A stretch of 8,336 nucleotides of DNA, taken from the IMG/VR virus record IMGVR_UViG_2778261169_000006, one strand, 5' to 3'. Made by a program: the position numbers. The stretch comes from a virus (taxonomy: Duplodnaviria > Heunggongvirae > Uroviricota > Caudoviricetes). Below, in pieces: positions 1-3,000 of this stretch (position 1 is its first letter; the number at the start of each line of letters is the position of its first letter).

Positions 1-3000
1 GAAAATCCGGATGAAGCCGGGCGTTACAGCATGGACGTTGAGTACGGTCAGTACAGCGTTATTCTGTTGGTGGAAGGCTTCCCGCCATCGCATGCCGGGA
101 CCATCACCGTGTATGAAGACTCACAACCGGGTACGCTGAATGATTTTCTCGGTGCCATGACGGAGGATGATGTCCATCCGGAGGCACTGCGCCGCTTTGA
201 ACTGATGGTGGAAGAAGTGGCGCGTAACGCGTCCGCGGTGGCACAGAACACGGCAGAGGCTGCTATTTCTGCCTCTCAGGCCGAAGAGTTCGCGAGCAAT
301 GCTTCTGAATATGCGTTGAATAAGTTCACGTTCTATAAAACGCCGAGCGATCCGGACGGTACAATTGCAGGCCTTGTTGCTACGACCAACGGACAGTCGT
401 TCCGCGTAGCGGAAGGTCCGGAAGCGACGGCGGCATTCAAAACCTACGAGAACCAGGATGGCGTAGCTGTGTTGCAGGCTTCTGAGCCAGGCACAGCGGC
501 TATAACTGGGACAATCCGCGAGTTTCCGACGCTGGCGGCGGCACAGGCAGACGCAGATGCTGGCAATATTCCTGTTGGGTCAACAGCTTATTACCGAGAC
601 TCCGATTACAAATATCTTGCAATAGAAGTTATCAATAATTCAGGGATATTATCTGCCACTGGCCGGGTAATGATTTCCAAGGGGTATATTGATGATCTTG
701 CATCAAGGGGATTAATCTCAACTGAGCTGGATGATGGTCTCGATATTGTTGATGTTGAATATGACCCAGTTTCCATGCGCATGTCTAAGTTCACTATGCG
801 TGATGGTCGTGTGTTTATCCCTTTGCTGCAATTATCTGAAAATGCAGTCACTGGAAATAATATTCAAAATGGCTCAGTAAGCTCAGAAAAACTTTCGCTG
901 GATGTTCAAAGTATTTTATCTCAGGAACTGGACCCTGATACTGGGTTTTCAGAAATCAACTACGATCCGGTAACCAGACGTATGTCTTCATATACCACAA
1001 CGGATGGACAGGTTTTTATTCCCTTGCTACAGGTCCCTGAGAATAGCGTCGGGAACTCACAACTTTCCACAGAAGTTCAGCAGGTCATTCCACTGGACCT
1101 TGACCCTGATACTGGTTATGTCAGCGTCGACTATGATCCGGTGACAAAGCGGATGTCCAGCTATGTGACGACAGATGGCGATGTATTTATTTCTCGTCTT
1201 CTGTTGGGTGATGACATCGTCGGCTTCTCAACGCTGACTGAAGATGTACAGAATAAAATTATTGCACACCCACAGGATGTTGTAGATGCCCGCCCGGATG
1301 CAACGCGCTCAACGCTCTCCGAAATCGCGGTGCGGACCAATGCACGCGACGGCTCTGCCTGGTCTCCGCTGCCGTCGCATGTGTGTAAGGCCGCATTCGG
1401 AATTAATGCGACCGGCACCGCGATTGAATACCGGCAGGCCAGCGGGCTGCTGTTCACCGGGAAAGCGCGGGCGGGCGTGTTTACACCAGGCGCGGTGCCA
1501 TCGCTGACGAAAAAAGGGCGGTTTCTCACCACCGCAGTTACCACGCCGACAGGGACGTTTGCTGTCGGTGATTACTACAGCTACGAGGCCTATAACACTA
1601 ACAGCAATCTGTCAGAAACGTTGCCCGGTACATGGGGAAGTCAGAGCCTTTACTGCGGCGATAATCTGGTGTGGGATGGCGCTCAGTTCGTTATTCAGCG
1701 CGGACCAGGCACTGGTGTTATAAAAATCGCGGAAAGCTGGTATGAAGTCACTGCTGCGGGAACATTTAACGGCATGACGCTACAGGCAGGGGACAAATTG
1801 CTCTATACAGGACTGCAAACTGCCGGTGGTGCATCCATGACTCCACGATGGGTATTGCTGTCATCAGCCAGTGATGCACTGGTTTACGCAGGGGAGTTTG
1901 CTCCTGCCTCTGGTTATCCTGCTAGTCCACTGCGTAATTCGGTTTATCAGGCATCCGCAGCGGGTACCATTTCAGGAAATAGTTTTTCTGCCGGAGATTA
2001 CGCTCTCTGGGATGGCTCCGCGTGGATTCGCATAGCAGGTCAGGCATCCGTTACTGTTGCTGCAGGCAGCTCTATCAGCCTACGTTGTAGTCAAAACTCT
2101 GACGAGTGGGAAATTCGGCGTTCTGATAAGAGCTCTGGCCCTGTCGGTGTAAGGCTGAAAGCTCAGGTGATGACGACAATCCGTAAATCTCTTGGGAGTA
2201 AGCTTCTCTTGATCGGGGATTCTCTTTTCGGCAGTGGAAATTCCGGCAACCAAATCCTTTCAGAGGTGAGCGTGCCCGGGGAGGTCCGCTCCTATGGCGG
2301 CTCTACTTCCGATCAGGTCCTCGGTATGTTAAAGCAGGAAATTCTTGTTAACGGGGATAATTATGCCGGACAGGTCATCTGCTTTTGGCACGGACAAAAT
2401 AACCAGCCGACAACTGATTTAAATGCTGCACAAATCAGGCAGGATTCTATTGAAATGGCTGCATTGGTTGGGGCCAGGGATGCCAGATATATATTCCTGA
2501 CAATTATGGGGCAAAGGACAGAGACATGGAACGGTTCAAGAATTGTTGTACAGCAGCATGAGGACCAGTACGCTAAAACGGGTGTTCTTTACGAGCTTGG
2601 AGAATGGTACAGAAGAATATTTCCAGGACGTTTCTTTAACGTATACCAAAATATGCTTTCTGCTGCTACTGACGCAATTGATCCTACTTTCCCGGGCATG
2701 ACCGAAAAACAAGTTGCTGTTACTTATGGCGTTCTACCCTGGTCATTTTTCAATGGCGGGTCATTTACAGGGTTCACAACAAACGACCTGGTATACAAAG
2801 GTACATGGAGTGACACAGTATTACCAACTGGTGGTAGTTCTATGGATTACTACATCAGGATAGGTGGCGGAACAGTTGGAAACATTATTTACAATAATGG
2901 CGGTGTATGGTCTGAAAAATCAATAGACCGGACACACCTTAGTAACACAGGTGGTCTTGCGCTTGCGAATGGTGGATCAGGTTTTTCCACAATATCATCC

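What the first reader, a model, noticed from the sequence alone, without database searches (positions are those of the whole stretch)
2200..2950. Tail fibre carries a C-terminal SGNH/GDSL esterase-like domain
Seen: the block I-II-III-V motif order (GDSLF ... GGSTSD ... HGQNN ... DRTH) within the last ~270 residues of a protein whose N-terminus is a lambdoid Stf anchor. Established: some phage tailspikes and fibres carry SGNH esterase domains that deacetylate O-antigen or capsule receptors. Inference: this fibre enzymatically modifies a surface polysaccharide, with implications for host range. Block III is GQNN rather than GxND, so activity is not certain.
Basis: partly seen in the sequence, partly recalled or inferred. 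Interest (0 to 1): 0.55.

Follow-up and report, generated by a model that had tools for sequence, protein, structure and literature searches.

The report
Tail fibre ending in SGNH esterase domain
The side tail fibre of this E. coli prophage ends in a divergent but intact-looking SGNH-type esterase domain, a known device by which phages strip acetyl groups from host surface sugars; it always travels with an uncharacterised 275-residue partner gene.

The parts
1..3045 (+). Side tail fibre gene, cut at its 5' end by the window. The full-length protein is 1054 aa and window nt 1 corresponds to residue 41.
   Evidence: ORF list. No stop codon in nt 1-30. Identical over 1014 aa to the intact 1054-aa ORF in L001.
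1..282 (+). Lambdoid Stf-type N-terminal anchor (PF08400 phage_tail_N).
   Evidence: Pfam E 3.4e-39, residues 1-84 against profile positions 51-134. In related E. coli loci the gene follows gpJ and lom.
277..298 (+). Approximate left recombination junction. Downstream of it the fibre is 96-98% identical to K. pneumoniae myovirus-type prophage fibres.
   Evidence: BLASTP: L009 96% identical over aa 87-1004, L012 98.4% over aa 318-1004. E. coli matches H5-H9 begin at query nt 277/298.
724..1263 (+). Three tandem repeats of about 60 aa in the shaft (LDPDTGy..DYDPVT.RMSSY.TTDG.VFIPLLQ...).
   Evidence: Read directly from the translation. The same repeats align with the Mydovirus and PIN2 fibres.
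2194..3042 (+). C-terminal SGNH-fold hydrolase domain (aa ~722-1004).
2215..2223 (+). Block I, G729-D730-S731. Ser731 is the predicted nucleophile.
   Evidence: D730 and S731 are 100% conserved in 87 sequences. They align with the GDS of PAF-AH Ib and follow strand beta-1 in the model.
2296..2301 (+). Block II, G756-G757 (predicted oxyanion-hole glycine).
   Evidence: 83-89% conserved. Aligns with the GG of PAF-AH Ib.
2392..2403 (+). Block III, G788-Q789-N790-N791. Asn790 is the predicted oxyanion-hole residue.
   Evidence: N790 100% and G788 95% conserved. Aligns with the GTNN of PAF-AH Ib.
2671..2919 (+). Family-specific insertion of about 85 aa (one helix plus a 4-5-strand beta unit), placed just before the Asp/His loop. 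It is a candidate substrate-binding lid.
2926..2937 (+). Block V, D966-R-T-H969 (predicted catalytic Asp and His).
   Evidence: H969 100% and D966 95% conserved. In a weak second stretch, whose own score is negative and not significant, DvtH aligns with the DYLH of PAF-AH.
3056..3883 (+). Conserved 275-aa partner gene of unknown function, 10 nt downstream of the fibre stop codon.
   Evidence: 50-52% identical to the gene that follows the homologous fibre in Klebsiella phages Seu621 and PIN2. Found after this fibre type in K. pneumoniae prophages, in metagenomic loci and in Rhodococcus phage ReqiPoco6. No Pfam or PDB-sequence hit.
5238..5311 (+). 24-codon 3' remnant of the lambdoid tail-fibre assembly gene (tfa). 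This is the right junction of the imported block.
   Evidence: Exact identity with the 3' end of tfaQ in L007 resumes at nt 5238. The translation is VLLNRVDTSTAPDIEWPEEPDTM*.

Best explanation
The gene encodes a side tail fibre of a lambdoid prophage integrated at dusA. Its N-terminal ~85 residues dock it on the tail. A long repeat-containing shaft follows. The last ~280 residues form an SGNH-fold hydrolase with an intact predicted Ser731-Asp966-His969 triad and a Gly757/Asn790 oxyanion hole. An ~85-residue insertion sits next to the active-site loop. The most likely mechanism is that of known SGNH fibres such as phage G7C gp63.1. The fibre tip binds an O-acetylated surface polysaccharide (O-antigen, capsule or another exopolysaccharide) and hydrolyses the acetyl ester. 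Attachment is therefore specific but reversible, and the phage can work its way to the outer membrane, where the J tip protein engages its own receptor. What is shown: the motifs, their conservation, the fold, the fibre context, and the mosaic origin from Klebsiella-type prophages. What is inferred: catalytic activity, the acetyl-ester substrate, and the role in adsorption. The 275-aa gene directly downstream always accompanies this domain. It is inferred, weakly, to be a fibre-specific assembly factor or tip subunit that replaces Tfa.
Against: No curated HMM (Pfam, NCBIfam, PHROGs) recognises the domain. There is no sequence-level similarity to G7C gp63.1, nor to a Pfam-positive SGNH fibre at the same position in a related prophage. 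TM-scores to canonical SGNH proteins are only about 0.45-0.54, because roughly 100 residues are family-specific. I had no access to model coordinates, so the spatial convergence of Ser, His, Asp and Asn was not checked. No member of this family has been assayed. The nearest sequence hits are lipid acetylhydrolases, so the substrate class is open. Klebsiella Mydovirus phages listed with hosts of different capsule designations (K23, M-9, AJ218; phage names also carry K54) match the window domain at the same 67.5% identity, which argues against a capsule-type-specific target.
Confidence: 0.72

Rival explanations
1. The domain has the SGNH fold but serves only as a non-catalytic binding (lectin-like) tip. 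The motifs would be retained for structural reasons.
For: Curated SGNH HMMs fail. There is a large family-specific insertion. No activity data exist for this family.
Against: Ser731, Asn790 and His969 are invariant, and Asp966 and Gly788 are 95% conserved, across 87 sequences that have otherwise diverged to about 30% identity. That pattern is expected for catalysis rather than for scaffolding.
Confidence: 0.1
2. The domain is an active SGNH hydrolase acting on a lipid ester (outer-membrane phospholipid, lysophospholipid or lipid A acyl chain) rather than on a polysaccharide O-acetyl group.
For: The best sequence-level PDB hits are PAF acetylhydrolases, and several fold hits are GDSL lipases, thioesterase I or lysophospholipases. 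[quoted passage not shown]
Confidence: 0.12
3. The domain is an SGNH-fold O-acyltransferase (PatB/OatA/AlgX-like) that modifies the host surface rather than de-esterifying it.
Against: A virion fibre outside the cell has no acyl donor. The acyltransferases do not rank above the esterases. No precedent among phage fibres was found in the papers read.
Confidence: 0.02
4. The motif pattern is coincidental and the domain is not related to SGNH hydrolases.
For: No Pfam, NCBIfam or PHROG hit.
Confidence: 0.02

Closest known systems
E. coli phage G7C tail fibre gp63.1 (PDB 4qnl), an SGNH esterase that deacetylates O-antigen
   Different: There is no detectable sequence similarity: gp63.1 is absent from the PDB sequence hits. 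gp63.1 belongs to an N4-like podovirus branched fibre system, whereas this is a lambdoid side fibre with a PF08400 anchor. This domain also has an ~85-aa insertion before block V and a dedicated downstream partner gene.
SGNH-domain tail fibres of Klebsiella pneumoniae prophages (164_08-KL2 and 174_38-KL55; PLoS Biol 2026, PMC13123978)
   Same: Both are prophage tail fibres with a C-terminal SGNH domain. The two tested proteins are pNPA esterases. The window's fibre is 96-98% identical to K. pneumoniae prophage fibres.
   Different: Whether the two assayed proteins belong to this sequence family is unknown. Family signature strings were not found in the paper's held supplements. The window copy sits in E. 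coli on a lambdoid anchor.
1092-aa 'tail spike protein' of Klebsiella Mydovirus phages (Seu621 QOI68627.1, KpS8, KB57) and the 851-aa protein of phage PIN2
   Same: They are 50-55% identical over nearly the whole fibre (aa 59-1004 and 282-1004) and 65-67% in the SGNH domain. Each is followed by the same 275-aa partner gene. The BFVD model of the Seu621 protein matches at TM 0.91. [quoted passage not shown]
   Different: The N-terminal anchors and virion types differ: a large virulent myovirus and a 59-kb phage versus a lambdoid prophage. None has been assayed.
PAF acetylhydrolase Ib catalytic subunits (PDB 1fxw, 1wab, 3dt6), classical SGNH acetyl esterases
   Same: They are the best sequence-level relatives with solved structures (E 8.5e-5). 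GDS, GG and GxNN align, and a DxxH alignment appears in a weak second stretch. PAF-AH also has GTNN rather than GxND.
   Different: They are eukaryotic cytosolic enzymes acting on a lipid acetyl ester, of about 230 aa and without the insertion. Only about 100 residues align at the sequence level.
Phage lambda Stf/Tfa side tail fibre system
   Same: The N-terminal PF08400 anchor matches, and the gene sits after J and lom.
   Different: Everything after about aa 87 has been replaced. The tfa chaperone gene is reduced to a 24-codon remnant, and an unrelated 275-aa gene follows the fibre gene.

Membership tests
SGNH/GDSL hydrolase superfamily | Block I GDS with the nucleophilic Ser directly after the first beta strand | tested here: met
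   G729-D730-S731 follow strand E25-29 of the model. D and S are 100% conserved in 87 sequences and align with the GDS of PAF-AH Ib.
SGNH/GDSL hydrolase superfamily | Block II glycine (oxyanion hole) after the second strand | tested here: met
   G756/G757 follow strand E50-54. They are 83-89% conserved and align with the GG of PAF-AH.
SGNH/GDSL hydrolase superfamily | Block III GxN with a conserved Asn (oxyanion hole) | tested here: met
   In G788-Q-N790-N791, N790 is 100% and G788 95% conserved. The block aligns with the GTNN of active PAF-AH. The fourth position is N rather than D, as in PAF-AH.
SGNH/GDSL hydrolase superfamily | Block V DxxH (catalytic Asp and His) near the C-terminus | tested here: met
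   In D966-R-T-H969, H969 is 100% and D966 95% conserved. A weak second stretch aligns it with the DYLH of PAF-AH; that stretch has a negative score and is not significant on its own.
SGNH/GDSL hydrolase superfamily | Three-layer alpha/beta/alpha fold with a parallel central sheet | tested here: met
SGNH/GDSL hydrolase superfamily | Significant match to the curated family HMMs (Pfam PF13472 / PF00657, or NCBIfam) | tested here: not met
   No hit for the window domain at E<=10. Only 1 of 39 family members gives PF00657, at E 0.2. This reflects profile coverage rather than a structural feature, since a family profile does reach SGNH proteins in the PDB at E 8.5e-5.
SGNH/GDSL hydrolase superfamily | Ser, His, Asp, Gly and Asn converge in one active-site pocket | not tested
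   Model coordinates are not exposed to the scripting tool. Only secondary structure and fold matches were available.
SGNH/GDSL hydrolase superfamily | Ester hydrolase activity | not testable with these tools
   Needs a pNPA or acetylated-polysaccharide assay.
Phage receptor-binding proteins with an SGNH polysaccharide deacetylase domain (G7C gp63.1 type) | The protein is a virion tail fibre or tailspike | tested here: met
   PF08400 anchor at E 3.4e-39. PHROG tail fibre families match. The gene follows gpJ and lom in identical loci. Homologues lie in the baseplate/fibre gene clusters of Klebsiella phages.
Phage receptor-binding proteins with an SGNH polysaccharide deacetylase domain (G7C gp63.1 type) | Structural similarity of the enzymatic domain to gp63.1 | tested here: met
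Phage receptor-binding proteins with an SGNH polysaccharide deacetylase domain (G7C gp63.1 type) | Removes O-acetyl groups from the host O-antigen or capsule, and this is needed for infection | not testable with these tools
   Needs NMR or MS of treated polysaccharide and adsorption assays.
Lambda Stf/Tfa side tail fibre system | Stf N-terminal attachment domain | tested here: met
   PF08400 at 134 bits.
Lambda Stf/Tfa side tail fibre system | Intact tfa chaperone gene directly downstream | tested here: not met
   Only a 24-codon 3' remnant remains, at nt 5238-5311. The gene after the fibre is an unrelated 275-aa ORF.

The most novel reading that the evidence does not exclude
The fibre and the 275-aa gene behind it form an obligate two-gene receptor-binding cassette. 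This Pfam-invisible SGNH-like esterase domain, with its own inserted beta subdomain, would work only together with the partner protein, which would act as a dedicated chaperone or as a tip subunit supplying binding specificity. The pairing is found in enterobacterial sipho- and myoviruses and in Rhodococcus phages (partner homologues also occur in Gordonia phages). It moves as a unit between phage types and, nearly unchanged, between Klebsiella and E. coli.
Probability: 0.4. Interest if true: 0.55.

Novelty: new member of a known kind. Interest (0 to 1): 0.36.

Why it matters
Tail-fibre enzymes decide which strains a phage can attack. This module is common in K. pneumoniae prophages, and copies 96-98% identical sit in a few E. 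coli genomes on a different tail anchor. That is a concrete case of a receptor-binding cassette crossing genera. The domain is missed by Pfam, NCBIfam and PHROGs, and RefSeq annotates the intact 1054-aa gene as a 445-nt pseudogene fragment. Surveys based on those resources will therefore undercount fibres of this type. The conserved partner gene is an unexplored component that phage-engineering work on SGNH fibres would probably have to carry along.

Tried and rejected
- Pfam, NCBIfam and PHROG scans of the C-terminal 304 aa returned nothing, even at E<=10. A per-member Pfam scan of 39 relatives gave only one Lipase_GDSL hit, at E 0.2.
- A single-sequence search against PDB sequences found nothing.
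- BLASTP and hhalign against the Pfam-positive SGNH fibre of the related E. coli prophage L002 showed no significant similarity.
- The first AlphaFold run, with only 5 sequences, was mediocre (pLDDT 68). It was replaced by the 39-sequence run.
- I looked for the family in the supplements of PMC13123978 using signature strings, and none were found. The link to the assayed Klebsiella proteins therefore stays open.
- For the partner protein, Pfam on nine diverse homologues, single-sequence searches and two profile searches against the PDB gave only chance-level hits.
- The idea that the beta insertion is a copy of shaft repeats was dropped: the HMM sub-matches in the window protein score <=0.2 bits.
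- In two distant loci (L013, L015) the same-sized downstream ORF shows no HMM similarity to the partner. The pairing is therefore not proven universal.

Full report
**What is in the window.**
- A single long ORF in frame 1 runs from the left edge of the window to the stop codon at nt 3043-3045.
- Its first 84 residues, counted from the ATG at nt 31, match Pfam PF08400 (prophage tail fibre N-terminal domain) at E 3.4e-39. The match starts at profile position 51, so the true start lies about 50 codons upstream of the window.
- An identical protein (1014 of 1014 residues) is encoded by an intact 1054-aa ORF in E. coli NZ_CM136177, directly after gpJ and lom.
- The rest of the window holds:
  - a 275-aa ORF (3056-3883);
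  - a small ORF plus an S24/UmuD-like gene (3934-4505);
  - a truncated glycine-rich fibre-like gene (4517-5161);
  - a 24-codon remnant of tfa (5238-5311);
  - DinI, an integrase, dusA and pspG.
- This is therefore the right end of a lambdoid prophage integrated at dusA.

**The observation.** GDSLF is at nt 2215-2229, GGSTSD at 2296-2313, HGQNN at 2389-2403 and DRTH at 2926-2937, corresponding to aa 729, 756, 787 and 966.

**Is it an SGNH hydrolase?**
Pfam, NCBIfam and PHROGs give no hit for the last 304 residues, even at E<=10. A single-sequence search of PDB sequences also finds nothing.
- I therefore collected the family.
  - The word-indexed protein search found only nine relatives, mostly fragments from Klebsiella pneumoniae.
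  - A profile search of 1.84 billion cluster representatives found 105 members. Almost all carry the domain at the C-terminus of 800-1100-aa proteins, and there was no bleed into generic SGNH families.
- In an alignment of 87 full domains, the best-conserved positions include the SGNH catalytic set: D730 and S731 100%, N790 100%, H969 100%, G788 and D966 95%, G756/G757 83-89%.
- A profile of 39 members (alignment A3) was searched against PDB sequences.
  - It returned 14 hits, headed by the catalytic subunits of PAF acetylhydrolase Ib (E 8.5e-5) and followed mostly by GDSL-like proteins.
  - GDS, GG and WHGQNN align with the GDS, GG and WVGTNN of PAF-AH.
  - A weak second stretch, not significant on its own, aligns DxxH with DYLH.
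- With that alignment AlphaFold2 gave a confident model, pLDDT 91 and pTM 0.86. An earlier run with five sequences gave only pLDDT 68.
- Fold searches with the confident model all point the same way.
  - The top 44 Foldseek hits are likewise all SGNH/GDSL.
The functional Asn is invariant, and an active SGNH acetylhydrolase has GTNN at the same place.
- About 100 residues are family-specific. Chief among them is an ~85-residue helix-plus-beta-sheet insertion (aa 881-963) immediately before the Asp/His loop. It is rich in conserved Gly, Pro and aromatic residues. This insertion probably explains both the moderate TM-scores (0.45-0.54) and the failure of the curated HMMs.

**Relatives and context.**
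- The whole fibre from about aa 59 onward is 50% identical to the 1092-aa 'tail spike protein' of Klebsiella Mydovirus phages (Seu621, KpS8, KB57 and others). From aa 282 onward it is 55% identical to an 851-aa protein of Klebsiella phage PIN2.
- From aa ~87 onward it is 96-98% identical to fibres of K. pneumoniae myovirus-type prophages.
- In E. coli the module is rare: 4 of 5426 complete genomes carry it. The dusA/integrase end of the window, by contrast, is in 731 genomes.
- Identity to the lambdoid backbone resumes at nt 5238, inside the last 24 codons of tfa.
- The simplest reading is that a ~5-kb block (fibre body, partner gene, two small genes and a glycine-rich gene) from a Klebsiella-type prophage replaced the distal part of stf and almost all of tfa. 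Only the lambdoid anchor was kept.

**The partner gene.**
- The 275-aa ORF that starts 10 nt after the fibre stop has no Pfam, NCBIfam or PDB-sequence match.
- It follows this fibre type almost everywhere I looked:
  - all 15 Klebsiella phage records that contain the domain also contain the partner, and it lies directly downstream of the fibre in Seu621 and PIN2, the two inspected;
  - K. pneumoniae P2-like and other myovirus-type prophages;
  - three of five distant metagenomic or genomic family members (HMM E 6e-14 to 6e-44);
  - Rhodococcus phage ReqiPoco6, where its homologue gp004 (E 6e-44) follows gp003.
- ReqiPoco6 gp003 is a fibre that its depositors annotated as SGNH-like. It is the second-best BFVD structural match to my model and aligns weakly with the family profile (hhalign E 4e-5).
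- Two further distant loci have an ORF of the same size in that position, but without detectable similarity.
- A canonical, Pfam-positive SGNH fibre on the same prophage backbone in E. coli MEI008 has no such partner.
- The partner occupies the slot where Tfa-type chaperones normally sit. PHROG 36751 contains it as the C-terminal part of a 1057-aa minor tail protein.
- I infer a fibre-specific assembly or tip subunit. This is not shown.

**Mechanism.**
- Shown: the architecture (anchor, shaft with three ~60-aa repeats, SGNH domain at the tip), the conserved catalytic residues, the fold, and the modular transfer.
- Inferred from characterised SGNH fibres: the tip hydrolyses an O-acetyl ester on a surface polysaccharide, giving specific, reversible attachment before J-mediated irreversible binding.
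  - G7C gp63.1 deacetylates O-antigen.
  - Two Klebsiella prophage SGNH fibres hydrolyse pNPA (PMC13123978).
- The substrate is unknown. Mydovirus phages listed with hosts of different capsule designations all match the window domain at the same 67.5% identity. This hints at a target other than the type-specific capsule repeat.
- Rivals are a non-catalytic binding role, a lipid ester substrate, and an acyltransferase role. They are less likely for the reasons given in their entries.

**Novelty.**
- SGNH esterase domains on tail fibres and tailspikes are well established, and were recently reported as the most prevalent enzymatic domain in Klebsiella prophage RBPs.
- A 2026 preprint lists GDSL-like lipase-containing tail fibres in myoviruses and SGNH RBPs in Mydovirus. 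These very probably include the homologue of this protein.
- This is therefore a new member of a known kind.
- What is less ordinary:
  - the family is invisible to the curated HMM libraries;
  - RefSeq annotates the intact gene as a short pseudogene fragment and leaves about 2.7 kb unannotated;
  - nearly identical copies exist in Klebsiella and E. coli;
  - the partner gene is tightly linked to the domain.

Noticed in passing
window 3056-3883 (+): A 275-aa ORF with no known domain almost always lies directly downstream of fibres that end in this SGNH-like domain. This holds in E. coli, K. pneumoniae prophages, Klebsiella Mydovirus and PIN2, metagenomic loci, and Rhodococcus phage ReqiPoco6 (gp003/gp004). 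The ORF is absent next to a canonical Pfam-positive SGNH fibre on the same prophage backbone (L002).
   Followed up: partly
window ~277-298 and ~5238: These are mosaic junctions. Left of ~nt 290 lies the lambdoid PF08400 anchor. Between the junctions, the fibre body (to nt 3042) is 96-98% identical, and the partner protein 97-99% identical, to K. pneumoniae prophage copies, and the gene order matches those prophages. Exact identity with lambdoid tfaQ resumes at nt 5238. The module is present in only 4 of 5426 complete E. coli genomes.
   Followed up: partly
L001 5881-9045 and L003 3881-7045 (equivalent to window 1-3045): RefSeq/PGAP annotates the intact 1054-aa fibre ORF as a 445-nt 'incomplete' pseudogene and leaves about 2.7 kb without any feature. 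The ORF is open throughout in both genomes.
   Followed up: yes
window 5238-5311 (+): A 24-codon 3' remnant of the tail fibre assembly gene tfa (VLLNRVDTSTAPDIEWPEEPDTM*). The prophage therefore lacks an intact Tfa chaperone next to its side fibre.
   Followed up: yes
window 3934-4188 and 4155-4505 (+): An overlapping pair: a small protein (phrog_3893) and a UmuD/HumD-like S24 peptidase (phrog_3469, E 1.7e-46). The pair travels with the fibre block in K. pneumoniae and E. coli prophages, which is an odd passenger inside a tail-fibre cassette.
   Followed up: no
window 4517-5161 (+): A glycine-rich fibre-like protein (Pfam Gly_rich_2 just below threshold, several PHROG tail fibre families). It is 214 aa here against 352 aa in K. 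pneumoniae locus L012, so it was probably truncated by the recombination that created the right junction.
   Followed up: no
window 5427-8336: The prophage end and attachment region: a DinI-like gene (5427-5675, -), a tyrosine integrase (5737-6834, -) abutting dusA (6923-7960, +), then pspG. This arrangement is shared by 731 complete E. coli genomes, which carry different fibre cassettes.
   Followed up: partly
window 724-1263 (+) and aa 501-680 of the fibre: The shaft contains three ~60-aa tandem repeats (DYDPVT.RMSSY.TTDG.VFIPLLQ). Further on are several 'GDY..W.G..W'-like hairpin motifs. A suspected relationship between these motifs and the beta insertion of the SGNH domain was not significant (scores <=0.2 bits).
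   Followed up: partly
L008 (Rhodococcus phage ReqiPoco6) 1-10548: This is an array of at least six tail fibre genes that share an Mtd_N-like N-terminus. Two carry SGNH-type domains: one is Pfam-positive with a Laminin_G_3 domain, and the other is Pfam-negative and followed by the partner homologue.
   Followed up: no
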